NCBI GenBank assembly: GCA_963575745.1
Contig: CAUYUJ010000003.1
Span: 1,240,001-1,304,000 of the forward strand
Length of the DNA: 64,000 bases
Source: Prorocentrum cordatum
Taxonomy: Eukaryota
Direction: 5' to 3'
Below the pieces are notes generated by a model. The model was not told where the DNA came from, made no database searches, and was given only the letters and a program-made list of their open reading frames with translations. How positions within the stretch are numbered: the first letter of the stretch is position 1; every line of letters begins with the position of its first letter. The translations under genes were made by a program, and so were the position numbers. Shown here in pieces: positions 30,500-62,314 of the stretch.

Positions 30500-30590
30500 C
30501 ATCACGCATCGGTGAATGTCCAAGCCGTTCCACTCTGCAACACGCCGCGCATACTCCGGGTTGGGCTTCCCGAGGCTGACCGCGCGTGTG
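30500..30590 (-). CDS. PGP: PGP exon 10 (AVSLGKPNPEY...RCVM)
   Basis: GKP motif and the xxMV lead-in to GDRLDTD; donor ATG|gtatcc. The 5' boundary is ambiguous (30590, 30582 or 30575). Confidence 0.87.
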
Positions 30591-33375
30591 CCCAGAGGAC
30601 CGATGCGTCCCTTCCTGGCGGGGGAGGAGCAGACGTGGGAGCAGGGGGGGAAGAGGAGGGGGAGGAAACATAGCCACAACGACCCGAGCGCGTCAGCTCC
30701 CCTGCGACCGCCCGCCCTTAACTCACCTTACCGCCAGCACACGGCTGGCTGTCCGCTCCGTCCCTCGTGCAGCGCATGATCCGTCCACTACCACAGAAAC
30801 CAACGTCCAGAGCCAACAAAGAACTCACATTATGCCTCTGTGGGTAAGCTTGCACTGATAAGATAAGGCGTCATACTCCAGTCTTCCCGCATGGCAGACC
30901 CGAACTGGATCGACCTGCGACATCGGATCGGATCGGAAACGGAAGGGATCGCCGACCAGTCGTCCCCAATTGGACCACCGCGCCTGGCTCTGGCAGGCCA
31001 TGGCCGATGCCAGCGAATCGAACCGAATCGAATCGAGTTGGAATCGCAGCCCCAGCCAGCGAATCGAATCACATCGAATCGGATTGCAGGCGGCCCTGGC
31101 TCGTCCCCAGGGCAAGCGTACCCGTCGGTCGGAAGAAGTGGGTGGAAACACGAAGTAGAAAAGCGCTGGAAGTAGATTGGGCTTCCGCCCGCACCCCGAA
31201 GAGGAGGGAAGAGGGAAAACCAATCGACTCTTGAAGTAGGAAGGCGCCCAGAGCAGATTAGGACCTGGGAATCCAAAAATACCTACTTTCAACGACTGGC
31301 ATGTTGATCCCCAGACCCATGGGGCCGCCGTCCCGAGCGAGCAGCTCGATCTTTTGCCCACCCCTCGCGCGTGCTCTGGGGCCCGACCCCCCGTCACCGA
31401 GAGGCCGAGGCGGTGCGGCGCGTGCCTCACAGCCAAGGATGCACGAAGCCAGGGACACACAAATAAACAGACACAAATCCCGGGATTCCCCTACATGTTT
31501 CCACATGTTCTGGAGTTTCGTCTTCCCCCCCCACTACCCCGTATTTTCCTGTATGTTCCTGGGGGTCGACGTTGATGTGTATCTCCGTGTTATGTCCCTC
31601 CTAAAACAGTTCTGCAAAAGAGCGCGCGCGTTGCCGTGCACGGTATGCTCATGTCGTGACGACCTGCTCGGTGGCCTCCGACAACGCGTGGATCGCTAAA
31701 CCTTGATCGATCGCGGCTTCCCGATAGCGCGGATCGTTCGATTATTGGCCGACCCTGGGCTACTGTCGGTGATCAATCTTGAACGCCCGCGTTGGGGTCA
31801 GCGCGGTTTCGACACGAAACCAACCTGTCGTAAAACGCCTGTTCCCCGGAGTCCTCCCTCGAGAACGTTGTCTTCCTCGCACGCGTCTATTGATCACTAT
31901 CAACCCGCCACCGTACCCCCTGACACTTTGAGGCTTAGTAGACTACAAAGTGGTTGGGAAAGCTCGTGAGGGCCTCCCCCATCTCATCACAAAGTGCCGT
32001 GTGCATACCTCAGCTTCTCCCGAGGATTCCTGGGCGCAAGGACGCATCCCTGGGGCCCTCCAAGACTCTCGAAGGCTGCCAGGACGGCCTCGGAAGGCCG
32101 CCAAGATAGCCTATAATTGCCTCAAGACGCACTCAAGAGCCCATAAGAAGCACCCGACAGACCCCTACGAGAGTCCCCACGACACCCCCAAGAGACTCTC
32201 CAGAAGACCCTCGAGAGGCCCAAACATTGATTTCCCCAATGTGTTTCAATGTGTTTCGCCTTCCACGCTCTTCCAGCGACGATCGGTTCACTTGCGGCCT
32301 TCGAAGCCACTGAGAGCCCCAAGACGGCCCCAAGAGGAGCCCCAGATGGCCGAAAAATGCCGAGGACGGCAGGAGGGTCCGAAGACGGCCCACGAGGGTC
32401 GCAAAGGGTACCCAAGACTGCTCCACCAGCCTCAAGACGGCCCCAATCAAACCCGTGAGCTCTCCAGCCTCAAAAAGTGGAGATGAGAGGCGTTACATAT
32501 GAAAGCCTTCTCGAAAGGCCACCACACAGAGCAATTCGCTCGCAAGGTGGCCGGTTTGCCGCAGGCAGCTGGATATTCTTCTTGCAAGGCGAATTCCCAA
32601 AACTGCTCCACCCTTACGGAAACTTTGGCAGGCCGCAAACGGAGGCCCCAAAGCAGACCAGCCCACATCACGCCACCCTGCACCTTCCTGCCCGAGGTGG
32701 TGGGGATGCCCAGTCCTGTGCGCTGCGCATGCGTCACATGCAGCCTTGCGGGTGGTAAGAAACATAACAACAATCGTACCTCGATCAACCGCAACACTGT
32801 CGCAAATGAGGCAGTGAACACGATTGATACTTGAAGCTGTTGGTTTTCCTAGTCATTGTGCGCGTCAACACATCCCCAGACACACGCACCCACCCACCCA
32901 CCTACTCAGCTACTCACCCACCCACCCACACACGCTCAGCTGACTCCAAACCGCAAAAGCAACGCAACGGGCCAAGTTTGCTTCGAATTGACTTCCTTAT
33001 GAAGACGTGCAGCAATCGAGGCAAGACACACGCGCACGCACAGACTCGTTCCTCCGACACGCCGCTGAGTTGAAAACGACAGAAGCATTTTAAAGGGACA
33101 TGTTTACCACGAGTTAGCTTTCTTGTGAAGCAGGCCGGTAGTCTGCCCCCCCCCCCCACACGCGCACTGGTTCCTCCTCTGGCGCTGTGTGTCACGAACG
33201 CGTGGCACGCTGACCCGATGTTCATGTCAGATGATCTCTCACACACGCACACCACAACAGCAAAAAAAAAGCGCGCACACACACAGACGCGCACACACAC
33301 ACACACTTGAGCGTCGCGGCCTCGTACGCAGCGTAGCGGCGTACAAGGTCCGAGAGCTAGAAGCGAGGCACGTAG

Positions 33376-33411: not shown

Positions 33412-36400
33412 TTCGCACACACAAAGACACACACGCACATACATGCGCACCTTGTCCACGAGGGGCGGAAGCGATGCAAAGGCGAGGGCATCCATCTGTA
33501 ATTGATCGTCATGACGATGTCGCAAGGCTGAAACACACTGCGAGGGGAGCGAGAGCGCACTGGATCCCCATGGGCACACTAGAGCGAGGGAAGAGAGAGG
33601 GCCAGAGAGAAGATGAAGCGAGGAGAGAAGCAGGAAACACATCTGACTGTTCCAGCGCGACTTATGTTTGCTGCGTTTGCTCCCTCAACCTCCCCTCTCC
33701 TCTCCCTCCTCCTTTTCCGAGTCGGGGCCCATTGCAAATATTTGACTCCCTTGCCCTTACCCGTACAAGACGCTCAACGGCCTCCGTGGACAGAATATCG
33801 GCCACACTGCCGGGATACATTCCGTTCACGTTCTTTGCGCTTTCATTCCCCTCAGCTTGCCTCCGTCTTCTCCCAGGAGCAAGAAGCGCGAAATGAGACT
33901 AGAGAGAGAAGAGGGGAGGAGGGAGACGAAGGAAAAAAAAGGAGAGGAGCAACAAGTGCTCGGACCGTTAGAACGGTTATGAGCACACATGCAAGCAGAA
34001 GCCGAAGCAGGGCAACGATGGCAACCACTCTGCAGGGAAGCACCCGGAGAAGGTCGAACACACTAGAACAAGAAGCGGGCCAAGCCTCGATCGCGGGTAA
34101 CAAGCAGCCGTTCCCAGGGAGTAGACAGTCGCCCACCCTGGGCGGAGCGGGCCGCAGGGAGCAAAACTGCAGTGGCTGCGGTTGCGATGACAGGGCGACG
34201 ACATTGACCACGAGCATGACTGCGACGATGACTGCGGTCCTGACCAAGGAGAAAGCGCGGTTCACGGGCGCTTGGGTGCGAGGCAGTCCTCGACACGCCG
34301 AAATTCGCCCCCCCAACCCCCCCAAACATCCCAAGCGCCCAGCGCACCAGAACCTCCACCAGCCTCCCCACACCCCGACACGTCGATGCCGATAATGATG
34401 AAGTTGTGCTAGGGGAATTAAGCGGCGATGCCACCTGTTCGTCCATCTGAGCTCGGCACCTGAGCGCCTGTCACCCACGCTCTCGGTCGCCAATCCATCG
34501 ACCGATTCTGGGCCGCCGCTGGCGCTCAACGTGGAACGCTGGCGGCGGGGTCACCGCCGATCGACACGACGCGAACGTGCCGTACACCATCGTGGGGCCC
34601 AGGACAGGGCTCGCGCTTAACAGTGTTCTCGTTCGGTCTTCGCTCTCCTTCGATCTGTCCTCGTTCCACCTTTTTGCTGCAAAGCCAAAGATCAGAACGA
34701 GAGCGGTCCGCGAGATCGGGCCCAGAATGGCCACGGCCAGGCGCGGTGGTGGCAGATGGAATGCCTCCAGCGGATCTGTACAATCGGACCTAGGCCAGAA
34801 GAGCATAAGACAAAGCCAGGACGAGGATTACATCGGGTGAGGATACGTCGTGATACTTCGAGAATCTCTGAAATCTGGCGGATCTGAAGGATGTCTTGGG
34901 CGCCGCGGTCTTCTCAGAACGTTCTGGAACGTTCTCAGGCGTTATGGAGTGCTCTGAACGGATTGATCCTCGTTCTAGCCCCGTCCGGGTGATAGCGTGA
35001 TGGCAAGATGGACTCAACAGGGTCAAGAGAACGGACACGTACTCCCATGCCAAGCGCTGTAATATTCTGCTTTTCGCACGGGCATTTGTACACTGTGACT
35101 GACGGAAGCGCGAGTTCTCTGAGCGGCCGCGCATGAATCAGGGCCCTCCTGATCCGTCGTGTCCATTACATCCGAAGTTGTCTGGTTTCCCGAAACAATA
35201 CGACGCCCAAATCCCCGCTCTTCGCTACCGCGCCGATGGTCATCCGAGAGAACATCATCCATTCACACCCGAACTCCGTCAAACAGATGCAAACGTACAG
35301 CGCTACGCGCAATCAGCCGAAGAACATTCGACGGCACTGACGTGCACACGTTTGCCCTTTCGGCGCTCAAAAGTGGCAACAAACCGACTCGGGCACCCGA
35401 AATCGCCCACATATGGTACCTGCACGCCTAGTTGGACGCCCGACATGGGTACCGAAAAAATGGGCACGATGCCCAACAACAAATGTTGTCCCAAACCAAC
35501 AGCGGCCGCTGTTGGGCAGGCGGCCTTCTGTCTCAAATGTGCACAAGCCGCGGCGACACCGACAGCGAGTCTTGTTCAAAATGAACAGGAACCGCTGTTG
35601 GGCATTGTACCCGTTCTTTCCGTACTAATTTCGGGCGTCCAGAGCCTAAGCTGATGCGACTAGCCCCGCTGAGTCCGGGCCTGGTAAATCAACGTGCGAA
35701 ACGCTGTACAAGACTGGACGGAACCTGCACTTGCAACTGGGAAGCCGTGAACGCGGCAGTGTGCCATCCTTTAACGCGTGTGTCATGTTCTCAGCGTTGA
35801 CTGCTGCAACTCACGGGTCGCATGTTCAGCGATTGCCCTCAACCACAAGAGCAGTCGCAGCTGCTGCTGAATCTGAAGAGCGGCCTACCCCAGTGAACCC
35901 AAACCACAAGCGAAACCAGAAGTGAAGGTACGGCGGGTTCGTGTAGTGACGACGTTGGCGCTGGTTTCTGACACCGCGTGGATCTTTCAACGTTTAACGA
36001 TCGCGAACGCGCTGAAGTTACCGCGGCGTCGGCACGGCGCGAGCCCACCGCATTTGAATAGTTAGAGATGTGTGTTCGAAAGATTGTGAACAGCTTCCAG
36101 ACAACTCACTCTGACCACAGCGAGTATTATCAAGTGCGTTTGGCGTTTGTGTCTTTATCTCTCTGCTGTTCTCTTTCTATGTATGTATGTATATATGCAT
36201 ATATATGTATGTCTGTACATGCATGTGTATACTATATGTACTTTATTTATTTATATATACATATATGTGTGCCCCAGCCCGTCCCCCTCTTTTTTGCGGC
36301 TCGGCCAGAGAGCCTTGTTCAGGAGGGAGCGGGGGCCTTAGTGCTACTGGGGGCCCATGGAGACGCCTGAGCATGGAGCCCCCGGGGATCTGAGCATACA

Positions 36401-39400
36401 CACGGCGCCAGCTTCGCCGGCACGACCGTGCTGTCCCGGACCCGGGGGCCCAGGCAGAGACACGGGAGGTGGCCCAAGATGACTACGGAGTCCAAGGACG
36501 GCTGAACCGCTCATACACGGAGGGACATGGGGCATAATCTTCTCCGGGTGATGCCATATGCCCCAACCCGTCCCCCTGTTTTTTGCGGCTCAGCCAGAGA
36601 GCCTTGTTCAGGAGGGAGCGGGGGCCTTAGTGCTACCGGGGGCCCAAAGAGACGCCTGAGAATGGAGCCCCCGGGGGTTTGAGCGTACACATGGCGCCAG
36701 CTTCGCCGGCACGACCGTGTTGTCCCGGACCCGGGGACCTTCAGGACCAATCTCCCGGCCACCAGGGTGCACACTAGGACCACGCTACCCTTCCATGGAC
36801 CCCATTTCTGTCCTGTAAGGACGTTCCCCCCATGCCCTCCCTAGCCTGGATTAAACCTAGCCGCCTACCTGACAAGGGAGGAGGAGGGGAGGGGCATGAG
36901 AGAGTGTCTATAAGGAAAAGTGAGGTAGGTGGAGCGGGAAAAAATAGCGGATCAGGAGCGACGCGAGTGTCCGAGCGCCCCGAACGTCGGCTTCCTGTGG
37001 CTCGCTGAGCTGGCATGCGGCCAGCGCTGCAACTGCATCTCGCACATATACTCGGGCTGACTTGGCAGAGGCCCATCGCCCTTTGAGGAGCGTTTCCTTT
37101 AACGATCCGTGGGCGAGAAAATCAGCTGTGGCCAGCACTCTTCTGAAGGGGTAAAGGGTGACCTTCCTTTCTTCCAGCCCCAGTGCGGCGACAGCCCGCC
37201 TGAAGAGGCGGCCAAAACTCGCCGCGTGTCAGTCCGAGGGGCTTTTCGTCTGGACCGAGCGGTCCGACGTGAGTTTGTGGCAGGCGAGCGGCGGTTGCTG
37301 AACACGCGACCGCCAGCACAGCGCGGCCTCCCCGCAGGCCGGTCTTCGCCCCACGAGGAGCCAGGATAGCGGTGGAGCGCGCGGGGAAAAATCGGACGCC
37401 CTGCCGCTGGAGCCCAGCATCTCGTCCGACTTTCAAAAAGCACGAGTAGCCACGCATGAGGAGCGCAGCCGCGCGGCCGTGGCCCCACTAGTGGACGGCC
37501 CCGGCGATGGCTGCTGCAAACAGGGGCGACCGCGGCAGGGCCCGCTTGTCGGCCCCAGCCACAAACGCGTCTTCTGCAGCTTGCAGCCCAGCTTGGGCTT
37601 GCCACTGAGTGGCGGCGCGACGCAGGCCACGGCTGCCAAACCGCTGACCACCTCCAGCAGTGAGCCGCCTTCGCGCCACACATGCTTGATGCAGGCGGCC
37701 ACGCACTCATAGGCCGCCTGCTGCACCCAGAAGACTAGAAGCCGGCGCGCGGCGAGCATATAGCGCTCGCGGGTGACCCGCGCCAAGCGAGCGTCACCGA
37801 AGGGCTGGGCCTCGCGCCGCCGGCGCGTCGGCTGCTCGCCGCACCAGCGCCTCGCGGCTCACGGAGCAGGCAGCCCCATCAGGCCACGTCGAATTAGCGG
37901 GACGGGACGTCATCAGGGTTCTCGTCTGCATCGATGGGGGCGCACATCGGGTACTTGCCAGAGGCCAGGAGGTCTGCCGCGGGGCCGCGCATCCAGTGCC
38001 AGCGCCGTCGCGCGCTGCACCTCCCCTTTGCTCGGACACTGGCGGCGACCTGCGAACCCAGGAGGTGGAGGTGCCAGAACCGGAACCTCGCGGCGGTCCG
38101 CGACATCCACTTGATGGCGTTGACCGCGGCGCCGACCTCGAGCTCCTTGAGGCGGGCGTCCTCGCGCCACGGGTGGCCGTGTCCAATCGACCGCGTCCAC
38201 AGGTTCGACCGCAACCCTGAGCGGACCAACGCCTTGGCTTCGAATGGCGCTTGCAGATCGAGCCCCACGTCCGCCCCCCCCCGCTGGCGGCCCCCAGGTA
38301 CTCGAGGACCAGCTGCTGCGCGAGGTCCGTATCCAGCGCCCCCGTCGACTCGAAGTCGGGCGCGTGGCCCCAGGACTCTGGGGCTGCGCCGGCGATCAGG
38401 AACGGCAAGATGGGGGGCCCGCCCTGCTGGATTTCTTGAACCAGGAGCTGTGCGAGGACGTGCGCCACGACCTGCACCGAGGAGGAGTTGCCGATGAGCG
38501 ACGACCTGATGACCCCTGTTCCTCGGCTCGGTACAGACTCCTTCACGGCAACACGCACACGGCCCGGGGGGGGGGGAATGGTCTCGCGCTCATCTGCCGA
38601 GGGGATCGGCCACGCAGTGCGCGAGGTGTTTCCACAGCAGTAACTGATCTTCAAAGTAGTACGATGGCGAGACGCACCTGGTCTCCGCCCCCCTCGCGAT
38701 GGCGGCCTCGCTCCCGCCCCTGATATCCGCGCCCGGCGCTGGCGGCGAGGCCTGTTTGCGCAACTTTGCAGCGGTGTGGAGCGCGTGAGATGGACCGAGC
38801 CCGCCCCAGCCGTCCTCGGCCCAGGCAGGGAACTCCCTGGGGGCAACATGCAGCTTCACCTTGTGGCACCTCACCTCCCCGGTGACATCAATCACTCCTG
38901 TGCGCGGCTGCGGGGCACATGACAACCAGCAAAACCTTGGCATCCTAGCCAAGCTTCCGTACATCGCCTCGACCCTGCACGGCTTGGCCCCCGGCTGCCG
39001 CGAAATGGGGAGCGAGTCCTCCGCGTTCACCCCAGCGACTGCCTCAACGAGCTGGCGGGTCTGCCTCGCGCAGAGGGCCAGCTTGACAGCCTCGATGGCG
39101 CGCGGCCCCTCGAAGCGCAGGCTGCTCTTGTCGCCCGCGAGGGCCCTGCTTGGTCGCGCGGAGCCCGCTGAGGTCGGAGCGCGGCGAGCTGGCAGTCGCA
39201 ATGGCGGCGCTGGCGGTCTCGGCGGCTGGGCGCGTGACCTCGGCCTGGCCCTGGGAGCTGAGCTTGTTGATGTCCTCGAGCTCGACCACGCCCGGCCACC
39301 GCTGCCACTCGCGCCGCTTGGCTGCCTCGTCGATCACCGACGACGCGCGCGCAGCCACGCGGCGCGGGCACCGAGGCAGCGCCGCCCAAGCTGCGCCCAC

Positions 39401-44361: not shown

Positions 44362-44432
<71 letters not shown>

Positions 44433-45304
44433 CTAAAACACCACTACTCCGAACATCGCGGCATGAAGCGGGGGTCGCCTATCAGCGGGGTCGCTGTTCG
44501 TGGCGTAGAAGAAGCAGTCATAGTGCTTTTGAAACACCAATGAACTCTTCACAATCTTGTGGTCCGCCGGCCAGGTCTAACTGGCAAGAGCGCTGAAGTA
44601 GAGATCTGGCTGTGCGCGGATCCGCTGCCCCCGTGGAGGGAGGCCAACAGTCGCAGCCAGAGAGTGGAAAAAAGGAAGTGTAGGTGGGAGGGGGGGCATA
44701 GCGACTTGAAAGGGAGAGGAAATGAAGGGCAGAGGGGGTGGCAGCGAATCGAGGAGAATCTACATCACCCAACTTCGCGCATCGCGCCCTGCGATGCACG
44801 ACGCGCGGTTATCTTCGCTCCCTCGCGAGGCCATCTTGGAAAAAGGCAGCTCCCCGGCCGAGGCCTCGACGCGAGAAGCGCGATTATCTTTGCGCCCCGT
44901 GGGGGCTGCCTGGGGAACGGCCAGGAGGGAGACTGCAATGGCACGGGGTCAGACGCATGGTCTTCCATGCGCAGGCCGCGGCCGCGGCCGCGCCGACCGA
45001 TTGACAAGGGTCAACTGGCGAGGGGCGCGCAAGAAATGCTGCGGGCGGCTCGGCGACGGCCTTTCCCGACTAGTTCAGGGCGGTGTCCCAGCCGACGACG
45101 ACGCCGTCGTAGTGCTCCGCGGCCACGGTGGCCGCAAGCGCCGCCAGCCTCGTGTCCTCGGGAGCGCTCGGTGACCGCCAACGCGCGCATGGGAGGCGGC
45201 GGTGGCCGAGCAAAGATGCAGATGCGGGCGTGCACACGAGGGGTGGCTGGCCCCAGGAGGGGCAGGCGTTTGATGTTTTTTCCTCCTAACCCTCCCTCCT
45301 CTTC

Positions 45305-45338
<34 letters not shown>

Positions 45339-45414
45339 GTATCAGCATCAGCATCAGCATCATCATCATCAGCATCAGCATCAGCATCAGCATCAGCATC
45401 AGCATCAGCATCAG

Positions 45415-45461: not shown

Positions 45462-45462
45462 G

Positions 45463-51600: not shown

Positions 51601-52231
51601 GAAGGGGGGAGTGCGGTGTCGGCAGCGGTTAAGCTGATCATGCAGCCACGTGACCAGGGTGCGGGCCGTGCGCTCGTAGAGGCTGCGCTCTTTCCACTTG
51701 GTAGCACGTGGAGGAAAGTATAAGACAATCGTTTGCACATCATATTCTCCTGACACCAGCCTGACGCTCAGCCCCCAACCTTGTACAGCTTCAAGCGGAA
51801 GTTGAACCTCTCGTATATGCCCGGAGCGAAAACGATTCCCGAAAACGAGAGAAACTCCAGCCGACTTGTTTGTCAGATGCGATGGCGTCCAGCCTGCGCC
51901 CAGTACGAGACGACCTTCACACTTGAACTGAAAAGCTTCCAGTGTATCAGGTAGCCGGGTCAGAGAGCGCCGTTGGGTACCCACAAGGCCGACCAGGTCG
52001 TAAAAGGAGGTGCCCTTGATGATCTCCGCAAGCCGCAGGCCCGTTGCCGAGAGCGGGTTATACAGCAAGGTTCGCCATACTCTGGTCGCCATCCGTCGCG
52101 CGCCCCAGCAGGGGCCGAACCGACATTCAGTTCGGGCGAGCACCTCGGTGTGTGAATGTGGTTGCAATGCCTTGTCGCCAGCAAAGAATGCTAGGACCAG
52201 ACGGCGACTCGACGACGACGACGACGACGAC

Positions 52232-52286
<55 letters not shown>

Positions 52287-52301
52287 GCAACCACGAAGCG
52301 C

Positions 52302-52346
<45 letters not shown>

Positions 52347-55300: not shown

Positions 55301-58300
55301 GGGGGTATGAAGACAGAGGAGGGGAGAGGAGGAGGAGGAGGAGGAGGAGGAAAAAGCAGAGGACCAGTGCACAACCAAGACGCATGAACGATGTTGGAAT
55401 AAAACCTGCCTCCAATCTCCCTCTTCATAGGCCCCTGCAAATATTCCTTTTCAATGAGGGGCGTGCCCCGTTGGGAGACAACCGTTTGAAGATCCTGAGG
55501 CGTGCCAAAACACTATCCTCGGGACTCCAGCGCCACGACTCAATCTGACTATTGCGTCTTGACGACCCCGAATCGTGCCAAAACACCATTCCTGGGACTT
55601 CAACACCGAACATCAACGTAACTGTTGCGCCCTGAGAATCCTGTATCGTTCCAGAAACCATTTCTGATACGTTGCCTATGGGAATCGTGAAGCCCTTGCC
55701 TTGCAAATGTTTAAGACTAATGCGCGCGGCGCTAAGGCGAGAACCACATGTTGAAAAGGAACCGCCCTGAATCAGTGAAACCAGGGAACCCGTACAACGC
55801 GTTTCAGAAGAATGTGCGCGGCGCCGGGGCGAGAGCCATGTTTTGAAAACGGCCCGCCCTCAACTCGGGAAACTCTTGCATTTTTGAAAACGGATGTTCA
55901 CGGCGCTGACGGGCGAGAGCCACATTTTGAAAACCACCCGCCCTCCATCTGTGAACCTGTGCTCAACTGTTGTAAGCTTCGGGGTCATAAACGGCCAAGA
56001 GACGCGTCCAGCGAAACGCCCGGCCGCCCTTCTGACTGGCCCCGGGGCGCGACAGGGAGGAGTGATTGATGCGGAAGAGAAGAAAAAGAAAGAGGATAGT
56101 GGAGGAGGAGAATTGAGAGGGAGGAGCATGGATGAGAATGGGGGAGAATTGATAGGGAGGAGAATGGAGGAGGAGGACGGGAAAAAAGGATTTCTTGGTC
56201 GTCTGCCCCTGGCCGAACTCTGCCGCGCTGCCCCGTGCTCCCCGCAGCCGCAACGCGCGCGCGGCGCGCACTCGGGCCAGGCAGCCCCCCGCGCGCGGCT
56301 GGCCGCGAGAAGGCGGCAGTAAGCGGAGGAGAAGGAGGAGGAGGAGCGAGCGAGGAACGGAGATGGAGAAGGAGGAGGAGGGAAGATTTTCCCGTTGCAC
56401 GGGCTTCAGACCGATTGGCCCTTAGTTAGCACGCGAGCGAGCGAGGAAGAAGGGGAAGAGAAGGAGAAGGAGGAGAAAGGAGGAGGAGGCATGGGGGAGG
56501 AGTAGGAGTAGGAGGAGGAGGAGGAGGAAGAGGAGGAGGAGGAGGACGAGGAGAAAGAGGAGGAAAAAGGGGAGGAGGAGGTGGAGAAGAACGAGGAGAT
56601 GGAGGAGGAGGAGGAGGAGGAGGAGGAGGAGGAGGAGGAGGAGGAGGGGGAGGAGGAGGGAGGAGAAGCGAGGCATGGAGGAGGAGGAGGAGGAGGAGGA
56701 GGAGGAGGAGATTTCCGAGATTTCCCCCCAGGGCCCATTCTGGGATATCTCTTCTTCGAGCGTCTTCCCATTCGAGGTGGCTCTGCATATGTCGTATCGT
56801 GATGGATTCATCGCCTCCTCCCCGATGGTCAATGGCGCCCTTTATCCTCATCCAGATGTCGCCGTTGCCGAAGTGGTACGTTTTAGTCCTGTGTCTTCTA
56901 CGCCTCCAGTTCTTCGCCAATACTTCAGAGTCTGTCCAGTAGATGATGGGACCCTGCGAGTTCTGCAACACGCTGAGTAGTGCCCACATCTCCGCTCGGT
57001 TGTTCGTCTGTCTTGGTCCAGGTAGTGGACCTCGCATAGTTGCTCGTACAGTTGTCTGGTCCATGCACGCCCATCCCCATCCGCACCTGCGGTACCGTCG
57101 GTCTGCTGACATGGCTCCTCCACTGCCGTCGCCGCAGAAGTGTAGTGGGAAGTCGTCTGCGATCAGTTGTCCGTGCAGTACGTCGCCGTCGCAGGTGTGC
57201 GAGGGTTCCGTAGTGCATGGTGGTGGGCGAGAAAGAGGATGAGGAGGCGGAGGAGTAGGAGCAGGAGGAGGAGGAGGAGGAGGAGAAGGAGGAGGAAGGA
57301 GAAGCAAGGCATGGAGGAGAAAAAGGAGGAGGATGAGGAGGAAGAGGATGAGGAGGAAGAACAGGAAGAGGAAGAGGAAGAGGAGAAGGAAGGAGAAGCG
57401 AGGCATGGATAAGGAGGAGGAGGAGGAAGAGGAGGAGGAGGATTAAGAGGAGGAGGAGGAGGAGGAGGAGGAAGAGGAGGAGGAGGAGGAGGAGGAGGAG
57501 CAGGGGAGGAGGAGGAGGGGGAGGAGGCGGAGGAGGAGGCATGAGGAAGAGGGGGAAGAGAAGAGGCAGGAGAAGCGAGGCAAGGAATAGGACAAGGAGG
57601 AAGAGGAGGAGGAGGGGACGAAGGAGGAGACGAAGGAGGAGGAGGAGGAAGAGCAGGAAGAGCAGGAAGCAGGAGAAGCGAGGCATGGAGAAGGAGGATA
57701 AGGAGGTGGAGGAGGAGGACGAGGAGGAAGAGGAGGATGAGGAATGAGGAGGAGGAGTAGGAAGAGGAAGCGGAAGAGGAGGAGGAAGAGAAGGAGGAGG
57801 AGGAGGAGGAGGAGGAGGACGAAAAGGGGGAGGAGGGCGAGGAAGGAGGAACGAGGCACAGGGAATATGGAGGAGGAGGGGAGGAGGAAGATGAGGAACA
57901 GACTGGGGAGGGGGAGGAGGATGAAGAGGAAGAAGAGGAGCAGGAGGATGATGAACGAGGACAAACTGTGCATGGAGGAGGAGGACGAGGAAGAGGTGGA
58001 GGAGGAGAAAGAGGACGGAGAAACGAGGCATGGAGGAGGAGGGGGAAGAGGAGGAGGTGGAGAATAAGGGGAAATAGGAGGAGGAGATGGCTGATTATGA
58101 TGAGGATGAGACGGAGGATGAGGAGGAGGATAAGGAGAAGCGACGCATGGAGGAGGATGGGGCGGAGGAGAAGGAACAGGAGGAGAAGGCGGAGGAGGAC
58201 GAGGAGGACGACGAGGAAGACGAATAGGGGGAGGCGGAGGAAGAGGAGGCGGAAGAGGAGGAAGAGGAAGAGGAGGAGGAGAACCAGGAGGAGGATGAGG

Positions 58301-61300
58301 AGGAGGAGGGGGGGTGAGGAGAGAGGAGAAAGGAGGAGGGGGGGAGGATGAGGATGAAGGAGGCATGGAAAAAAGGAGGAAGATGAAGGGAAGGAGGAGG
58401 AGGAGGAGGAGGAGGAGGAGGAGGAAGAGGCAGAGGAGGCGGATGATGACGAGGAGGAGGACGACGACGAGGAGGATTACGACGAGGACGAATAGGAGGA
58501 GGCGGAGGACGAGGAGGAGGAAGCGGAGGAGGGGGGGAGGAGGAGAAAGGAAAACGGAGGAGGGGGAGGAGGGGGAGGAGGAGAGGAAATGAGGCAGGGA
58601 GAAGGGGGAGCAGGAGGAGGAGGGGGAAGGAGAAGCGAGGCCTGGATGAGGAGGGGCAGGAGGCGGATGAGGAGGAAAAGGATGATGGGGGAGGGAACAG
58701 GAAGAGGGGGATGAGGAGAAGGAGGAGGAAGAATAGAAACGAAGCGTGGCTGAGGAGGAGGAGGATGTGCATGAGGATGATGATGATGGTGCCGGTGCTT
58801 CTAGACATGATGCTGATGCTGCTGATGCTGCTGATGCTGATGATGATGATGCTGGTGATGCTGATGTTGATGATGCTGATGCTGCTGATGATGATAAAGA
58901 AAAGGAGGAGAACGAGGAGGGGGAGGACGAGGAGGAAAAGCGCGCCATGGAGGAGGACGGGGGGGAAAGGAAGGAGGAGGAGGAGGAGGGTGAGAAGCGA
59001 AGAATGGAGGAGGAGTAACACCCTTTAACAAAAAATGTGCGCGGCACTAGGGCGGAAACCGCATGTTGAAAGTGAGCCTCCCTCAACCCGTGAAGCTGTT
59101 GCAAGCTGTTGAAACGAATGTGCGCGGCGCTAAAGCGAGAACCACTTTTTGAAAACGAACCGCCCTCCATCCGTGAAGCTCTTGCAAATGTTCTGAAACA
59201 AATGCGCGCGGCAATATGGCGAGAACCACATTTTGAAAACGAGCCGCCCTCAATCCGTTTCATTCGTGCACCACTTTGGAAACGTTTGCGCGGCGCTGAT
59301 GCGAGGACCGCATTTCGAAAACGAGCCGCCCTCCATCCGTGAAACTATGGCAACGCTTTCCAAACGAATGTGCGCGGCGCTAAGGCGAGAACCGCATTTT
59401 GAACACGAGCACCCCTCAATCCGTTAAACACTGGCAACGTTTTCAAAACCAATGTGCGCGGCGCTGGCGCGAAAACCACATTTTGAGAACGAGCCGCCCC
59501 CCGTCTGTGAATATGTTGCAAACGTTTGAAACCCATGTGCGCGGCGCTAAGGAGACAACCACATTTTGAAAACGAGCCGCCCCCCATCCGTGAAGCCATT
59601 GCAACGTTTTCAAAACGAATGTGCGCGGCGCTGAGCGAAAATCACATTTTGAAAACGAGCCGCCCTCAATATGTGAAGCTCTTGCAAATGCTTGAAACCA
59701 ATGCGCGCGGCGCTAAAGTGAGGGCCACACGTTGAAAACGAGTCGCCCTCCATCCGTGAAACTCTTGCATTTTTTTGTGAAACGAATGTGCGCGGCGCTG
59801 GGGCGAAAACCACATTTCGAAAACGAGCCGCCCTCCATCCGTGAAGTTCTTGCATTTGTTACGAACGTGCGCGGCGCTGAAACGAGAACAACATTATATA
59901 AATCAGCCGCCCTCGATCCGTTAAACTCTTTGTGCGTTTTTTAAACGAATGCGCGCGGCGCTAAAGCGAGAACCACATTTTGAAAACGAGCCGCCCTCCA
60001 TCCGTGAAGCTCTTGCAAATGTTTGAAGCGAATGTGCGCGGCGCTAGGCAACATTCTTAACATTAGCCACCTTTCATCCGTGAAGCTCTTGCAACGCTTC
60101 TGAAACGAATGTGCGCGGCACAGGGGCGAGAACCACATTTTGGAAACGACCCGCCCTCCATCCTTGAAGCTCTTGCATATTACCTAACAGCTTGTACTGA
60201 TAGGTTTCTAGTAGGGTCAGAAGAGAGCATCATGACACCCCAGAGGGGGTCCGGGCGGAAGCCGGTAAAAACCGGGAGAATCCGGCGGAGCTCATTCCGT
60301 GCGTGCAGGTACGCACGGGAGCCACCTCGGCGCCATCGGAGGTGCGTTCCGTGCGTGCAGGCACGCACGGGGGCCACCTCGGCGCCATCGGAGGTGCGTT
60401 CCGTGCGTGCAGGTACGCACGGGGGCCACCTCGGCGCCATCGGAGGTGCGTTCCGCGCGCGCAGGTACGCACGGGAACCACCTCGGCGCCATCGGAGAAG
60501 CGTTCCGCGCGCGCAGGTACGCGCGGGGGCCACCTCGGCGCCATCGGAGGTGAGTTCCGTGGGCGCAGGTACGCACGGGAACCACCTCGGCGCCATCGGA
60601 GGCGCGGCTGAGGCAGGCTGAGGCTGAGGCTGAGGCTGAGGCGCAGGAGTATGCGGGAGCGCAGCAGGCTGAGGCTGAGGCAGGCTGAGGCTGAGGCTGA
60701 GGCTGATGCAGGCTGAGGCTGAGGCAGGCTGAGGCCGAAGGGGTATGCGGGAGCGCAGCAGGCTGAGACTGACGCAGGCTGAGGCTGAGACTGAGGCTGA
60801 TGCAGGCTGAGGCTGACGCAGGCTGAGCTGACTTGTCCTGTGTACCTCTCCAGTGTCACAGAAGATGCATCTGTAGCTTCCTCGTCGCATTAGGGGCTCC
60901 AGCGTCACCGAATGTGTCCTTATACCGTCGCTGTCGTGCCGCGGGGCGCTTCAGCGGGCAATCATGCGCATGAAGTACGCAACGCGCCTGCGCGCTCACG
61001 AAGAGGGCCAGGGCGCCCTGTCGCCTGCGGGCGACCGCGCGGGCTTGCCCCCGCAACAGCCAAAAAGGGCATGCCCACACGCCGGGTACAGCCTAAAAGG
61101 GCTTTCGTCTGCCTGTTCCTTGCCTCCCGCTCTCCTCCTGAGCACGTTTCGTTTGAGGCTGAACCCATTGATAGCAGTGTCTCGTTTGGACTTACATCCA
61201 TTGATAGCAGCGTCTCGTTTGGAATGAACACAAAAACCATGTGCTGTCTCGTTGATAGCAGTGCCTCCTTTGCAGAGACATCAACTATTGATAGCAGCGT

Positions 61301-62314
61301 CTCGTTTCCAGACGCATCCGTAGTAGTAAGTAGTAGTGTCCCGTTCGATATTAAATCCATTGATACTCGTGTCTCGTTTGGGGCGGAAACCATTGATAGC
61401 AGCATCTCGTTTGCACCTACACCCCTGCATAGCAGCGTCTCGTTTGGAATGAGCACAATAAGAATGTGCTGTCTCGTTGATAGTAGTGCCTCCTTTGCAG
61501 ACACGTCCACTATTGATCGCAGCGTTTCGCTTCCAGTCAAATCCGAACATGAATCTAAAGAAGAATGCTTCCATATATGCTCATACACATGGCTGTTAGG
61601 TTGTTTTGCTGGGATAATTGTTGAACACAATATGCGCGGCGCTGAAACGAGAACAACATTTTCAAAACAAACCGCCCTCAATCCGTGAAACTTGTGCAAC
61701 AAGTTTTCAGAACGTACGGGCGACAACCACATTTCGAAAACGAGCCCCCCTCCATCCGTGAAGCTCTTGCAACGCTTTTGAAACGAATGTGCCCCGCGCT
61801 AACAATAAAACCACATTTTGAAAACGAGCCGCCCTGCATCCGTGAAGCCCTTGCAAATGTTTGAAACGAATGTGCGCGGCGCTAAGGCGAGAGCCACAAA
61901 CCACCCTCAATCCGTGAAACTCTGGCAAATTTTTGAAACGGATGCGAGCGGCGCTAAGGAGAGAACCACATCATTCTTCTGGTGCGGGAATAACGCTTCT
62001 GCGTGCGGGAAGCGTTATCCTTTTGCCGGAAAGGGGGGGGGGGCTGAAATACTCCATGAGGCTAAGCACGCTCGGGAGGCCTGGAGGCGCTCGCGCCGTG
62101 CCCGATAAAGACTCGGGAGGGGATGCTTGCTCGCGTCGGGGCATGGGCCGAGGCTGGGCAGCGCCCGAGAAAGCGGGGCGTGGGGCCCGGTACGCGCGCT
62201 CCGCGCTGAGCCGCCCGCGTGGTAGAGCGTGCCGTCGCAGTCGAGCAGGAAGGCGTCGTAGTCGCGGAGCAGGTCCGCCACGGTGGCCGGCGAGCCTGAC
62301 TCCACGGCCTCCAT
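30500..62314 (-). CDS. PGP: Multi-exon HAD-IIA phosphatase (phosphoglycolate / glycerol-3-phosphate phosphatase family); 10 exons, 3'-incomplete in window
   Basis: Hand-spliced product: MEAVESGSPATVADLLRDYDAFLLDCDGTLYH-AGDLLPHVPETIGYLRSLGKRVFFVTNTSSR-SSEQLQEKLAGMGVDCVADECVP-SGVFAARYISREHPSAQRVYVIG-GQGLVDELRRVGIESSGGPAEDAETFE-DTRLAALAATVAAEHYDGVVVGWDTALNY-HKIVKSSLVFQKHYDCFFYATNSDPADR-VGDCLLPGNGCLLPAIE-AACDACAAHRTGHPHHLG-TRAVSLGKPNPEYARRVAEWNGLDIHRCVM. It has HAD motif I (DCDGT), motif II (VTN), VVVGWD, ATNxD, PGNG and GKP in the expected order, with compatible exon phases and no stops. Confidence 0.92.
32692..32744 (-). CDS. PGP: PGP exon 9 (AACDACAAHRTGHPHHLG)
   Basis: Phase-0 acceptor caag|GCT continues AIE-AAC. 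The 3' boundary is ambiguous (32692, 32684 or 32677) and family similarity is weak. Confidence 0.62.
34086..34137 (-). CDS. PGP: PGP exon 8 (VGDCLLPGNGCLLPAIE)
   Basis: PGxG cap motif; acceptor cccag|G; donor CGAG|gcttgg. Confidence 0.87.
35433..35641. mobile_element. MITE-like element with ~48-bp imperfect TIRs
   Basis: Left end tggacgcccgacatgggtaccgaaaaaatgggcacgatgcccaacaac versus reverse complement of right end tggacgcccgaaattagtacggaaagaacgggtacaatgcccaacagc; no clear TSD. Confidence 0.7.
36269..36739. repeat. ~180-bp direct repeat pair (36269-36450, 36559-36739) at the 3' end of the YR element
   Basis: gccagagagccttgttcaggagggagcgggggccttagtgctac... occurs twice, separated by ~108 bp. 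Confidence 0.9.
41730..43080 (-). mobile_element. 5'-truncated LINE 3' fragment (RNase H + Cys-rich C-terminus) nested in the YR element
   Basis: VCMDGSC, LPQTPQAAE, NADALAK RNase H-like motifs; FCTTCGAHTTRRCFLLGRECP. Confidence 0.62.
43675..43925. repeat. Short aagcttctca/ataagctt tandem repeat
   Basis: Visible directly. Confidence 0.7.
44240..44432. repeat. (CT)n microsatellite just inside the intron 7 donor
   Basis: Visible directly. Confidence 0.9.
44479..44562 (-). CDS. PGP: PGP exon 7 (HKIVKSSL...FYATNSDPAD)
   Basis: Not in the ORF track; ATNxD motif; donor ATAG|gcgacc; inferred acceptor gcgga|C is non-AG. Confidence 0.88.
45071..45156 (-). CDS. PGP: PGP exon 6 (DTRLAAL...DGVVVGWDTALN)
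   Basis: Not in the ORF track; read by hand. VVVGWD motif; acceptor cgag|GAC; donor TA|gtcggg. Confidence 0.88.
45308..45735. repeat. (CTG)n then (CAT/CAG)n microsatellite
   Basis: Visible directly. Confidence 0.95.
47070..47152 (-). CDS. PGP: PGP exon 5 (GQGLVDELRRVGI...ETFE)
   Basis: GLxxELxxxG...GGP pattern; acceptor ccag|GC; donor CGAG|gacgcc (GA). Confidence 0.85.
47240..52190 (-). mobile_element. Degenerate near full-length LINE (APE endonuclease + RT) with a downstream extra ORF, in PGP intron 4
   Basis: APE-like LLYNPLSA...DLVGLVGT...SAGV...LYFPP...MDLND (from ATG 52092); RT motifs LSNAFAS (~50070), QGGLMGDP (~49915), CADDL (~49730); frameshifted; ends near a (TGA)n tract. Ends approximate. 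Confidence 0.85.
47723..48410 (-). pseudogene. Broken ~220-aa ORF of unknown function 3' of the LINE RT
   Basis: ORFs 48126..48602 and 47723..48163 join across a stop/frameshift: LLQLVLLIAKLSL...GPPSVH...GAAPRGSLEREAQKLL; protein-like composition. Confidence 0.5.
52205..52650. repeat. (GAC)n and (gacagtggt)n repeats
   Basis: Visible directly. Confidence 0.9.
53673..53739 (-). CDS. PGP: PGP exon 4 (SGVFAARYI...RVYVI)
   Basis: AAxY...VYVIG family pattern; donor ATAG|gcagcg; no AG at the inferred acceptor (ccgact|TCT). Confidence 0.83.
54075..54144 (-). CDS. PGP: PGP exon 3 (SSEQLQEKLAGMG...ECVP)
   Basis: Acceptor cccag|G; donor CCT|gcttcg (GC); matches the family pattern SRxQYxKKFxxLG without gaps. 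Confidence 0.85.
54921..55012 (-). CDS. PGP: PGP exon 2 (AGDLLPHV...VTNTSS)
   Basis: LRSLGKRVFFVTN motif II; acceptor gag|GCG; donor CCAG|gaccga (GA). Confidence 0.9.
56440..59020. repeat. ~2.6-kb polypurine (GGA)n tract
   Basis: Visible directly; interrupted by the RNase H fragment; recurrent gaagcgaggcatgga punctuation. Confidence 0.95.
56712..57222 (-). pseudogene. Isolated LINE-type RNase H fragment
   Basis: Open frame FCGDGSGG...RRCGWG...GPLPGPRQTNNRAE...YWTDSE...NGDIW...MQSH...GN; the first three RNase H carboxylates are present. Confidence 0.85.
60179..60828. mobile_element. Second member of the hairpin-head family: head + 52-bp array + (GCTGAG)n
   Basis: Head shared with 21749; 52-bp period (60305, 60357, 60409, 60461, 60513, 60565); inserted in the 80-bp satellite. 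Confidence 0.6.
61140..61540 (-). repeat. 30-bp coding-like repeat (NETLLSMxxx) with a 225-bp higher-order duplication
   Basis: ccattgatagcagcgtctcgttt units; 61207-61310 duplicated at 61432-61537; open on both strands. Confidence 0.7.
62219..62314 (-). CDS. PGP: PGP exon 1 (MEAV...DCDGTLYH)
   Basis: HAD motif I FLLDCDGTLY; donor CAC|gcgggc. A pyrimidine-rich cctcctccag|G acceptor lies 16 nt upstream of the ATG, so the exon may begin at 62330. Confidence 0.9.

What the first reader, a model, noticed from the sequence alone, without database searches (positions are those of the whole stretch)
30500..62314. Intron 3' ends copy the upstream exon end, even where that is not AG
Seen (minus strand), exon end versus intron end: i2 CCAG/ccag, i4 ATAG/ccag, i5 CGAG/cgag, i7 ATAG/ccag, i8 CGAG/caag, i3 CCT/act, i9 CTCGG/ctggg, i6 CTA/gga. 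Five introns whose upstream exon ends in AG have AG acceptors. Three whose exon does not (i3, i6, i9) have no AG at the homology-defined junction and repeat the last 1-2 exon bases instead, while keeping GC/GT donors. Intron 1 is the exception (CAC|gc...ag), though it can slide along a GCGGG repeat. Established: dinoflagellates use GT/GC/GA donors, but acceptors are normally modelled as AG. Inference: the 3' splice site may be set by identity to the 5' exon end (repeat-guided or TSD-derived), and AG-only gene finders would mis-model such genes.
Basis: partly seen in the sequence, partly recalled or inferred. Interest (0 to 1): 0.8.

Follow-up and report, generated by a model that had tools for sequence, protein, structure and literature searches.

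The report
Dinoflagellate intron spliced without AG
In a phosphatase gene of the red-tide alga Prorocentrum cordatum, one intron really is cut out at a 3' end that lacks the usual AG, and this truncated the public gene model; the proposed rule that the intron end copies the exon end does not hold up.

Summary
The locus is a minus-strand HAD-IIA phosphatase gene (4-nitrophenylphosphatase/PGP-like) of Prorocentrum cordatum with at least 10 introns.

- **Intron 3 is confirmed as non-AG.** RNA contigs from 4 runs of 4 studies join 54075 directly to 53739. Intron 3 (335 nt) is therefore removed as GC..CT (equally TG..AC or CT..GA).
- **The NCBI model is truncated.** P0001 reads through this donor into a stop, so the annotation ends at intron 3.
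- **Intron 9 is refuted as placed.** A transcript-derived ORF (P0024) puts the exon 10 acceptor at ccag|GAAGGG (30614). A normal GA..AG junction then fits the homologs.
- **Intron 6 is untested by RNA.** All 21 homologs favour GT..GA by 16 bits.
- **The AG/AG matches are ordinary.** They are the standard AG|G consensus. The real excess repeat is intron start = next exon start (6 of 7), the published introner target-site-duplication footprint.
- **The copies at the non-AG introns are at chance level.** They are 2 nt and 1 nt long.
- **Intron 3 has a terminal inverted repeat.** It is 10-11 bp and gives a stable fold, resembling Amoebophrya non-canonical introner elements. This evidence is only suggestive.

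This is a new member of a known kind.

The parts
62219..62314 (-). Exon 1 (ATG at 62314; contains the HAD motif DCDGT)
   Evidence: 100% match to P0001. A loose end at 55012 reads ...CTCTACCAC in 4 of 4 runs. Translation.
55013..62218 (-). Intron 1, 7206 nt, GC..AG; GCGGG repeated at intron start and exon 2 start
   Evidence: E1-E2 joint implied by loose ends. Contains an RNase H ORF and long (GAG)n and 84-bp arrays.
54921..55012 (-). Exon 2
   Evidence: RNA contig pieces 54919-55012 with 0 differences in 4 of 4 runs.
54145..54920 (-). Intron 2, 776 nt, GA..AG within a 6-nt slide (CCAGGA repeat)
   Evidence: Joint 54142->54919 skips 776 nt, both = 6, in 4 of 4 runs.
54075..54144 (-). Exon 3
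   Evidence: RNA contig pieces 54075-54142 with 0 differences in 4 of 4 runs.
53740..54074 (-). Intron 3, 335 nt, non-AG: GC..CT (or TG..AC, CT..GA); phase 0; shortest intron
   Evidence: Joint 53739->54075 skips 335 nt, ends AG..GC on the + strand, both = 2, one contig in each of 4 runs (depths 201, 42, 7, 24). The nearest intronic AG ends 44 nt upstream.
54061..54071 (-). 5' arm of the intron 3 terminal inverted repeat (intron positions +4 to +14)
   Evidence: 11-bp stem (9 Watson-Crick + 2 G-U). 10 nt at 90% complementarity (I5). Kept in the MFE and centroid folds.
53742..53752 (-). 3' arm of the intron 3 terminal inverted repeat (intron positions -13 to -3)
53673..53739 (-). Exon 4
   Evidence: RNA contig pieces 53663-53739. 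The 10 extra nt and 2 differences arise because the intron 4 start resembles the exon 5 start.
47153..53672 (-). Intron 4, 6520 nt, GC..AG
   Evidence: The loose end at 53663 reads the exon 5 sequence in 4 of 4 runs.
47070..47152 (-). Exon 5
   Evidence: tblastn with homologs; loose end.
45157..47069 (-). Intron 5, 1913 nt, GA..AG; 7-nt CGAGGAC repeat across the boundaries
   Evidence: homology only.
45071..45156 (-). Exon 6
   Evidence: tblastn; model.
44563..45070 (-). Intron 6, 508 nt, probable non-AG: GT..GA (or AG..GG); phase 2; second shortest; no RNA test
   Evidence: HMM score 453.6 against 437.2 for the best GC..AG alternative. All 21 homologs have the same spacing, and P0004 is identical to the model over GWDTALNYHKIVKSSLVFQ.
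44479..44562 (-). Exon 7
   Evidence: tblastn. The 3' part and donor are confirmed by P0024.
34138..44478 (-). Intron 7, 10341 nt, GC..AG
   Evidence: The junction is reproduced in P0024.
34086..34137 (-). Exon 8
   Evidence: P0024.
32716..32744 (-). Exon 9, 29-nt micro-exon (AACDACAAHR), flanked by GC..AG (i8) and GA..AG (i9); skipped in the MMETSP transcript
   Evidence: Homology. P0024 joins E8 directly to E10.
30500..30614 (-). Exon 10; acceptor ccag|GAAGGG, donor ATG|gtatcc
   Evidence: P0024 is identical across it.

Best explanation
**What the locus is.** It is the P. cordatum HAD-IIA phosphatase gene. Seven of its first nine introns are ordinary dinoflagellate G(C/A)..AG introns. Their boundary repeats (AG|GH ... 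AG|GH, 3-7 nt) are the splice consensus plus the known footprint of introner target-site duplication. The repeats do not guide splicing.

**The non-AG introns.**
- Intron 3 is a genuine intron removed precisely at a non-AG 3' end (GC..CT). This step is shown.
- Intron 6 probably behaves the same way (GT..GA). This step is inferred from homology.
- These two are the shortest introns. They lack the AG|G context on both sides.

**Mechanism (inferred).**
- Intron 3 carries a 10-11 bp inverted repeat that starts 3 nt inside the 5' cut and ends 2 nt before the 3' cut.
- I infer that it is an introner-like, hairpin-closed non-canonical intron of the kind described in Amoebophrya.
- It is most likely removed by a tolerant dinoflagellate spliceosome that uses its normal GC donor.
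- The terminal helix, not an AG and not the 2-nt exon-end copy, brings the junctions together and fixes the 3' cut.
For: **Shown.**
- The joint 53739/54075 is present in one contig of each of 4 runs from 4 studies, one of them a poly(A) metatranscriptome. Spliced depth is 201 against 3.4-3.9 for unspliced intron contigs in X1.
- The spliced sequence is the top-scoring junction of 2866 in-frame candidates against a profile of 21 homologs. It scores 453.6 against 437.1 for the best GY/GA..AG candidate.
- All 21 homologs have EC[VIM]PS without a gap.
- No AG lies within 44 nt upstream of the cut.

**Suggestive.**
- The terminal stem is 11 bp. Only 1 of 72 non-cognate end pairings reaches 11 bp.
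- The repeat finder reports arms at 53742-53751 and 54062-54071.
- The stem closes the intron in both the MFE and centroid folds. z = -4.63, and 0 of 100 shuffles fold as well.
- The control intron 2 has z = -1.11.
- i3 and i6 are the two shortest of 9 introns, a 1 in 36 arrangement.

**Literature (passages read).**
- Amoebophrya non-canonical introns have 8-20 nt inverted repeats and 3-5 nt direct repeats at their boundaries (PMC7789003).
- Introner elements were found in 2.4% of P. cordatum introns (supplement of PMC10666404).
Against: - The duplex energy of the i3 ends (-21.5 kcal/mol) is average for this GC-rich gene. Non-cognate pairings average -19.1 with sd 7.0, and four canonical introns pair more strongly.
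- Strongly structured 335-nt windows are not rare in the canonical introns. 4 of 25 controls have z <= -4 and the lowest is -5.32, against -6.0 for i3 in the same script.
- The direct repeat is 2 nt, below the 3-5 nt of the Amoebophrya definition.
- No second copy of i3 lies in the window, and its terminal motif is not enriched: 18 matches against 22.3 expected.
- i6 shows no convincing terminal helix (z = -1.65, with 7 of 100 shuffles as good).
- i3 also has an ordinary-looking GC donor (GCTTCG, compare i8 GCTTGG) and a pyrimidine-rich tail (22 of the last 30 nt). A plain spliceosomal reading therefore needs no hairpin.
- The C-terminal 56 residues of the transcript are not encoded anywhere in the window, so the mRNA could come from another copy.
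Confidence: 0.5

Rival explanations
1. Plain relaxed spliceosomal 3' site. Intron 3 is an ordinary U2-type intron with a GC donor, a branch point and a pyrimidine tract. Its AG has been lost. The second step uses the first tolerated position at a set distance from the branch point, and the terminal helix is incidental.
For: - The donor GCTTCG resembles the i8 donor GCTTGG.
- 22 of the last 30 nt are pyrimidines, among the highest values in the gene.
- No AG lies within 44 nt upstream of the cut, and none lies in the exon before ATCAG, about 29 nt in, so nothing competes.
- The end-duplex energy is not exceptional.
- Structured windows are common in these introns (4 of 25 with z <= -4).
Against: - If the homology-defined i6 junction is right, an AG ending 14 nt upstream of the cut and the AAG ending 7 nt into the exon are both passed over. 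A distance or scanning rule does not predict this.
- An 11-bp contiguous stem starting at +4 would occlude the 5' splice-site region.
- Only 1 of 72 control pairings gives such a stem.
Confidence: 0.3
2. The mRNA comes from another genomic copy (a paralog or retrogene parent) with identical exons. The window holds a partial or decaying copy whose intron 3 and 6 ends are not the ones actually used.
For: - The last 56 residues of the transcript ORF P0024 are not encoded in the 30.5 kb downstream, nor anywhere else in the window. A 5-mer scan gave only 2 chance hits.
- In X1, one low-depth contig leaves the window sequence at 54009.
- P. cordatum has many duplicated genes (PMC10666404, passages).
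Against: - Exons 2 and 3 match with 0 differences, and exon 4 with none inside the exon, in 4 of 4 runs.
- P0024 is identical over 70 residues to E7+E8+E10.
- Unspliced contigs matching the interior of intron 3 (53869-54042, 1 difference each) are present in X1.
- The mean intron length is 4.7 kb and this gene has a 10.3-kb intron, so a very long intron 10 is possible.
- The NCBI model P0001 was built on this locus.
Confidence: 0.08
3. The 3' cut is chosen by identity between the intron end and the upstream exon end, that is, by repeat-guided splicing.
For: - i3 ends in ..ct and its upstream exon ends in ..CT. i6 shares one A.
- Identical 4-6 nt at both intron ends were noted long ago in Amphidinium (PMC2488372, passage).
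Against: - 2-nt and 1-nt copies are matched or exceeded in 3 of 30 and 14 of 30 non-cognate pairings.
- The third example (i9) was a misplaced junction.
- In the canonical introns the exon-end/intron-end side is not enriched (2.43 against 2.07), while the other side is (6 of 7 against 15 of 42).
- i1 has no such copy at all.
Confidence: 0.07
4. Artefact. The joint is created by reverse-transcriptase template switching or by contig assembly across a 2-nt repeat and a hairpin, or the genome assembly has wrong bases at the acceptor.
For: The skipped segment is structured and flanked by a 2-nt repeat. Those are the conditions in which template switching occurs (my own knowledge; no paper was read for this).
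Against: - The same joint is the dominant form in 4 runs of 4 studies (depth 201 against about 4 unspliced in X1).
- It restores the reading frame and the exact homolog spacing.
- Turning ..ct into ..ag needs two base errors.
Confidence: 0.03

Closest known systems
Introner-like-element (ILE) derived introns of Symbiodinium and Polarella (Roy et al., bioRxiv 10.1101/2020.10.14.339549; passages read)
   Same: - GC/GA/GT donors and AG acceptors followed by GH.
- Short direct repeats in which the first bases of the intron recur at the start of the downstream exon (NNNNgact...agGACT, AGGH).
- Here 6 of 7 canonical introns repeat 2 nt or more in that way.
   Different: - Those introns end in AG. 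Intron 3 (and probably intron 6) does not, and it lacks the GH after the 3' cut.
- Membership of a multi-copy element family could not be tested here.
Non-canonical introns / introner elements of Amoebophrya (Farhat et al. 2021, PMC7789003; abstract and passages read)
   Same: - RNA-supported introns without GT-AG.
- They are short.
- They carry an 8-20 nt inverted repeat between the two intron ends that can form a hairpin joining the exon borders, plus a short direct repeat over the boundaries.
   Different: - There more than 60% of introns are non-canonical and U1 snRNA was not detected. Here it is 1 (perhaps 2) of 9 introns in a free-living core dinoflagellate.
- The donor here is the species' commonest (GC).
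- The direct repeat is 2 nt, not 3-5.
- No family copies have been seen.
Identical bases at both intron ends in Amphidinium carterae (Bachvaroff & Place 2008, PMC2488372; passage read)
   Same: That paper reports that some intron-exon boundaries lack GT-AG, and that 4-6 identical bases occur at both ends of the intron.
   Different: It is a brief remark with no dinucleotides given. No RNA-seq-level support or structure analysis appears in the passage read.
Euglenid nonconventional introns and Fritillaria borealis non-canonical introns (review PMC11282704; passages read)
   Same: - Non-GT-AG borders.
- Terminal inverted repeats that bring the ends together, starting at +4 in euglenids.
- TSD-like repeats at the junctions.
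- A suspected MITE origin.
   Different: - The euglenid motif is CAG at +4..+6 pairing with CTG at -8..-6, and the introns lack a pyrimidine tract. i3 pairs +4..+14 with -13..-3 using other bases and has a pyrimidine-rich tail.
- Fritillaria favours AG-AC and AG-AT.
HAD-IIA phosphatases (PGP, pyridoxal phosphate phosphatase/chronophin, p-nitrophenyl phosphatase, NagD)
   Same: - Pfam Hydrolase_6 in P0001 and Hydrolase_like in P0024.
- The homolog P0004 matches PDB 4bkm (PDXP/PGP chimera) at 7e-29 and NPPases at about 4e-28.
- The DCDGT motif lies in exon 1.
   Different: Nothing unusual in the protein. The substrate is unknown.

Membership tests
Dinoflagellate G(T/C/A)..AG spliceosomal introns | GT, GC or GA at the 5' end and AG at the 3' end | tested here: met
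   Met for i1, i2, i4, i5, i7, i8 and i9 (7 of 9). RNA or transcript-ORF support exists for i1, i2, i4, i7 and the i9 acceptor. The remaining junctions rest on homology only.
Dinoflagellate G(T/C/A)..AG spliceosomal introns | AG at the 3' end, applied to intron 3 | tested here: not met
   The joint 53739/54075 with a 2-nt slide gives GC..CT, TG..AC or CT..GA in 4 of 4 runs.
Dinoflagellate G(T/C/A)..AG spliceosomal introns | AG at the 3' end, applied to intron 6 | tested here: inconclusive
   There is no RNA test. Homology prefers GT..GA by 16.4 bits over the best GC..AG junction, and 21 of 21 homologs have no indel there.
ILE/introner-derived introns with TSD footprint (Roy et al.) | The first bases of the intron are repeated at the start of the downstream exon (GHNN or AGGH) | tested here: met
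   A repeat of 2 nt or more in 6 of 7 canonical introns against 15 of 42 non-cognate pairings. The total repeat averages 5.0 against 3.57 nt, p = 0.003. Not met for i3 and i6 (d = 0).
ILE/introner-derived introns with TSD footprint (Roy et al.) | The intron belongs to a multi-copy family of similar elements | not testable with these tools
   No whole genome is held. Within the window there is no second copy of i2, i3 or i6 apart from simple repeats.
Amoebophrya-type non-canonical introner element (Farhat et al. 2021), applied to intron 3 | Splice sites other than GT-AG, confirmed by RNA | tested here: met
Amoebophrya-type non-canonical introner element (Farhat et al. 2021), applied to intron 3 | Inverted repeat of 8-20 nt between the first and last 30 nt of the intron | tested here: met
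   10 nt at 90% complementarity. 11 bp with 2 G-U pairs at +4..+14 / -13..-3. Controls reach 11 bp in 1 of 72 pairings, but the duplex energy is not exceptional.
Amoebophrya-type non-canonical introner element (Farhat et al. 2021), applied to intron 3 | Direct repeat of 3-5 nt overlapping the exon/intron boundaries | tested here: not met
   Only 2 nt (CT) are shared.
Euglenid nonconventional introns | CAG at +4..+6 pairing with CTG at -8..-6; no pyrimidine tract | tested here: not met
   i3 has TCG at +4..+6, its stem partner lies at -13..-3, and 22 of its last 30 nt are pyrimidines.
Euglenid nonconventional introns | Excised as a full-length circle after the conventional introns are removed | not testable with these tools
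   This needs circular-RNA or lariat data.
U12-type (minor spliceosome) introns | 5' splice site RTATCCTT | tested here: not met
   i3 starts GCTTCGGG and i6 starts GTCGGGAA. The consensus is recalled from my own knowledge. Only the intron 10 donor (gtatccatt) resembles it.
HAD-IIA phosphatase | Hydrolase_6 N-terminal and Hydrolase_like C-terminal domains above the Pfam cut-offs, plus a DxDxT nucleophile motif | tested here: met
   P0001 scores 68 bits for PF13344 (cut-off 27) and P0024 scores 71.1 bits for PF13242 (cut-off 22). DCDGT is in exon 1.

The most novel reading that the evidence does not exclude
Free-living core dinoflagellates such as P. cordatum have a second, hidden class of introns.
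- They are short and hairpin-clamped, lack GY..AG ends and lie outside AG|G protosplice sites.
- They are excised precisely by a structure-guided route related to Amoebophrya introner elements or euglenid nonconventional introns.
- Every dinoflagellate annotation pipeline insists on AG, so these introns are systematically missed.
- If so, a sizeable share of the 85,849 P. cordatum gene models may be truncated or split like this one.
Probability: 0.25. Interest if true: 0.7.

Novelty: new member of a known kind. Interest (0 to 1): 0.4.

Why it matters
- **Annotation.** Dinoflagellate genes are annotated with tools that accept GT/GC/GA donors but only AG acceptors. Here that rule cut a conserved 300-residue enzyme down to a 145-residue model ending in intron read-through.
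- **Scale.** If two of ten introns in an arbitrary housekeeping gene are non-AG, the problem may be common in P. cordatum. Its share of AGG acceptors (79.7%) is already oddly low compared with 93-97% in other free-living species (PMC10666404, Table 2, passage).
- **Evolutionary link.** The finding connects free-living dinoflagellates to the non-canonical introns of their parasitic relatives.
- **A test case.** It offers a concrete intron on which to ask whether a hairpin can replace the AG signal.
- **What the repeats are.** The boundary repeats are a relic of how introns arose, not a splicing guide.

Tried and rejected
**Searches that gave nothing usable**
1. Whole-genome search: no genome is held for this window. 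Paralogs and element families could not be examined.
2. RNA test of i6, of the i9 donor and of exon 9 inclusion. Reads were laid on 52650-55100, chosen to avoid the long tandem arrays found.
   - A scan of metagenome contigs with a 24-nt exon 7 string found 0 stretches.
   - The search for related loci with P0024 found only one 38%-identical relative.
   - The search of representatives with P0001 returned no same-species N-terminal fragment; the best foreign hit had 71% identity.
   - The second homologous-protein search returned 22 proteins, none above 74% identity.
3. The search of earlier findings: nothing for this genome, and only two unrelated Ostreococcus notes by words.

**Alternative readings of i3 that were rejected**
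4. U12-type: the donor does not match.
5. Nested or recursive splicing: the last step would still need AG at the genomic 3' end.
6. An antisense GT..AG intron: on the + strand GT begins at 53741 and AG ends at 54076. That would skip 336 nt, not the observed 335 (read).

**Alternative junctions that were rejected**
7. i2 as GT..AG (GAG|gtgcgc .. gcgag|CAG, one residue shorter): rejected by the 776-nt joint.

**Tests of an element family and of structure**
9. Terminal motif GTCGGGGAACA with up to 2 mismatches: 18 matches against 22.3 expected, so no enrichment.
10. blastn of i2, i3 and i6 against the window: no further copies except a CT-rich simple repeat.
11. End-duplex energy as a measure of the i3 hairpin: not distinctive.
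12. Fold of i6: z = -1.65, no clear closing helix in the centroid.

**ORFs inside introns**
13. Pfam on 8 long ORFs: only one hit, RNase H.

**Calls that returned format or size errors**
14..

Full report
**What the locus is.**
- The first 40 codons from the ATG at 62314 (minus strand) retrieved one protein with 100% identity. This is P0001, an NCBI 'unnamed protein product [Prorocentrum cordatum]' that UniRef names 4-nitrophenylphosphatase. The window is therefore P. cordatum DNA.
- A second search with the real part of P0001 gave 22 proteins among 320 candidates. Twenty-one of them (P0002-P0022, 307-350 aa, 60-74% identical in the query region) come from transcript-sized contigs or transcriptomes.
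- tblastn of these proteins and three-frame reading of the minus strand located ten exons between 62314 and 30500.
- Joined in a script, the exons give a 774-nt open frame. Its translation is 54-70% identical to the 21 homologs.
- Pfam finds Hydrolase_6 in P0001 and Hydrolase_like in P0024. The homolog P0004 matches solved PGP/PDXP and NPPase structures. The gene is an ordinary HAD-IIA phosphatase.

**Checking the observation in the sequence.**
- In my model the donors are GC (i1, i3, i4, i7, i8), GA (i2, i5, i9) and GT (i6, i10). This fits the species-wide 51.4% GC, 23.8% GA and 24.7% GT (PMC10666404, Table 2, passage).
- The five AG/AG matches are the usual AG|G context and need no special explanation.

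**RNA evidence.**
- A run search with 53600-55100 listed 20 runs of 7 studies holding 0.04-0.16 of the sampled words. That is the share expected if only exons 2-4 are present.
- I laid four runs from four studies on 52650-55100. I chose this stretch because introns 1, 4 and 5 hold long tandem arrays.
- In each of the 4 runs, one contig (depths 201, 42, 7 and 24) covers exons 2, 3 and 4 with no differences inside the exons. Each contig shows two joints.
- The first joint, 54142->54919, skips 776 nt with a 6-nt slide. This includes the GA..AG placement of intron 2.
- The second joint, 53739->54075, skips 335 nt. Its ends on the + strand are AG..GC with a 2-nt slide. On the gene strand this is GC..CT, TG..AC or CT..GA.
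- No placement gives AG.
- Loose ends read the end of exon 1 and the start of exon 5.
- X1 also holds low-depth contigs (3.4-3.9) inside intron 3, which are probably unspliced RNA.
- A profile of the 21 homologs ranks the RNA-verified junction first among 2866 in-frame candidates, 16.5 bits above the best G(T/C/A)..AG candidate.

**Intron 9.**
- A search with exon 10 returned P0024, an MMETSP transcript ORF of 127 aa.
- Its first 70 residues are identical to exon 7 (from 44521, out of frame) + exon 8 + exon 10, with exon 10 starting at 30614 directly after ccag.
- With the donor CACAG|gactgg at 32716, the junction is GA..AG. The protein reads AAHRKGRIGPLG, with the proline and glycine in the conserved columns.
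- In this transcript the 29-nt exon 9 is skipped, which shifts the frame. Whether exon 9 is included in other transcripts was not tested.

**Intron 6.**
- I could not obtain RNA for it.
- Homology is strong. All 21 homologs have the same spacing between GWD and K, and P0004 is identical to the model over GWDTALNYHKIVKSSLVFQ.
- The GT..GA (or AG..GG) junction scores 453.6 against 437.2 for the best canonical alternative, GC..AG at 45082/44576, which inserts a residue.
- Because the same kind of margin was borne out by RNA at intron 3, I put about 75% on a non-AG intron 6.

**Is the repeat more than chance, and on which side?**
- For the seven canonical introns, the number of positions over which the junction can slide averages 5.0. 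In 42 non-cognate pairings of the same donors and acceptors it averages 3.57 (p = 0.003).
- Split by side, intron start = next exon start is 2 nt or more in 6 of 7 introns against 15 of 42 controls.
- Exon end = intron end is hardly above control (2.43 against 2.07).
- This is the footprint Roy et al. describe for introner-like elements (NNNNgact...agGACT; GH after the 3' site).
- Bachvaroff and Place noted identical 4-6 nt at both intron ends in 2008.
- For the non-AG introns, the shared 2 nt and 1 nt are matched or exceeded in 3 of 30 and 14 of 30 control pairings.

**What distinguishes introns 3 and 6.**
- They are the two shortest of nine introns: 335 and 508 nt, against 776-10341 nt for the rest.
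- Their upstream exons do not end in AG, and their downstream exons do not start with G.
- Intron 3 has an 11-bp stem (9 Watson-Crick, 2 G-U) between +4..+14 and -13..-3. The repeat finder reports it as 10 nt at 90% complementarity.
- The stem closes the intron in the MFE and centroid folds. z = -4.63, and 0 of 100 shuffles fold as well.

**Cautions on the structure evidence.**
- The end-duplex energy is average for this gene.
- 4 of 25 control windows from canonical introns reach z <= -4.
- No other copy of intron 3 and no motif enrichment is seen in the window.
- Intron 6 shows no clear helix.
- Intron 3 also has a normal-looking GC donor and a pyrimidine-rich tail.

**Mechanism.**
- Shown: precise removal of intron 3 at a non-AG end in poly(A) RNA.
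- Inferred: it is an introner-like, hairpin-closed non-canonical intron as in Amoebophrya. It is probably handled by a tolerant spliceosome, with the helix placing the 3' cut.
- The main rival is a plain relaxed 3' site with no role for the helix.
- A paralogous source of the mRNA cannot be excluded, because the last 56 residues of P0024 are not encoded in the window.

**Comparison and novelty.**
- Boundary repeats and their TSD origin are published.
- Non-canonical introns with inverted and direct repeats are published for Amoebophrya, euglenids and Fritillaria.
- For core dinoflagellates, the passages I read describe 'nearly universal AG splice acceptors' (PMC12584245) and pipelines modified only for donors.
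- My four literature searches found no report of RNA-supported non-AG acceptors in Prorocentrum. Subscription papers and bioRxiv supplements were not searchable.
- I class this as a new member of a known kind.

**Practical consequence.** The public model P0001 is E1-E3 plus read-through to a stop.

Noticed in passing
window 32716-32744 (-), with 34086 and 30614: A 29-nt micro-exon (exon 9, AACDACAAHR) is skipped in the MMETSP transcript behind P0024. Exon 8 is joined directly to exon 10, which shifts the frame and splits the protein into two ORFs. This may explain why no full-length same-species protein was found.
   Followed up: partly
window 1-30499 (-) and 30497-30505: The last 56 residues of the transcript ORF (GDRLDTDIDMAIRAG...) are not encoded anywhere in the window. 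Either intron 10 exceeds 30.5 kb or this locus is a partial copy. The exon 10 donor reads ATG|gtatccatt, which resembles the U12-type 5' motif (motif recalled, not tested).
   Followed up: partly
window 56429-57442 (-), 57235-58729, 59034-60177, 60295-60831: Intron 1 holds an ORF with an RNase H domain (Pfam E = 2.9e-6), probably a retroelement remnant. It also holds a 1.5-kb (GAG)n array, a 1.1-kb satellite of 84/166-bp units, and 52-bp and 6-bp arrays.
   Followed up: partly
window 53663-53672 and 47143-47152 (-): The first 10 nt of intron 4 (GCAGCGAGGG) match the first 10 nt of exon 5 (GCGGCCAGGG) at 8 of 10 positions. The RNA contigs therefore align 10 nt into the intron. This looks like a longer, decayed boundary duplication.
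   Followed up: no
window 32680-32715 and 30585-30614 (-); 54057-54084 and 53731-53757 (-): Read-through past the donors of introns 9 and 3 encodes peptides resembling what the acceptor side encodes (RTGHPHHLG against RKGRIGPLG; CVPASG against CSPTSG). It may be chance in GC-rich DNA or the relic of a duplicated junction.
   Followed up: no
window 54009 (X1 contig) and 54701-54733: In run X1, one low-depth contig leaves the window sequence at 54009. A 2063-nt contig of depth 68 matches only 33 nt inside intron 2. These are hints of related sequence elsewhere in the genome or of a repeat.
   Followed up: no
window 28300-30400 (-): tblastn noise hits recur at about 870-bp spacing (30195, 29329, 28456) with near-identical translated strings. 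This indicates a tandem repeat of about 0.87 kb just downstream of exon 10.
   Followed up: no
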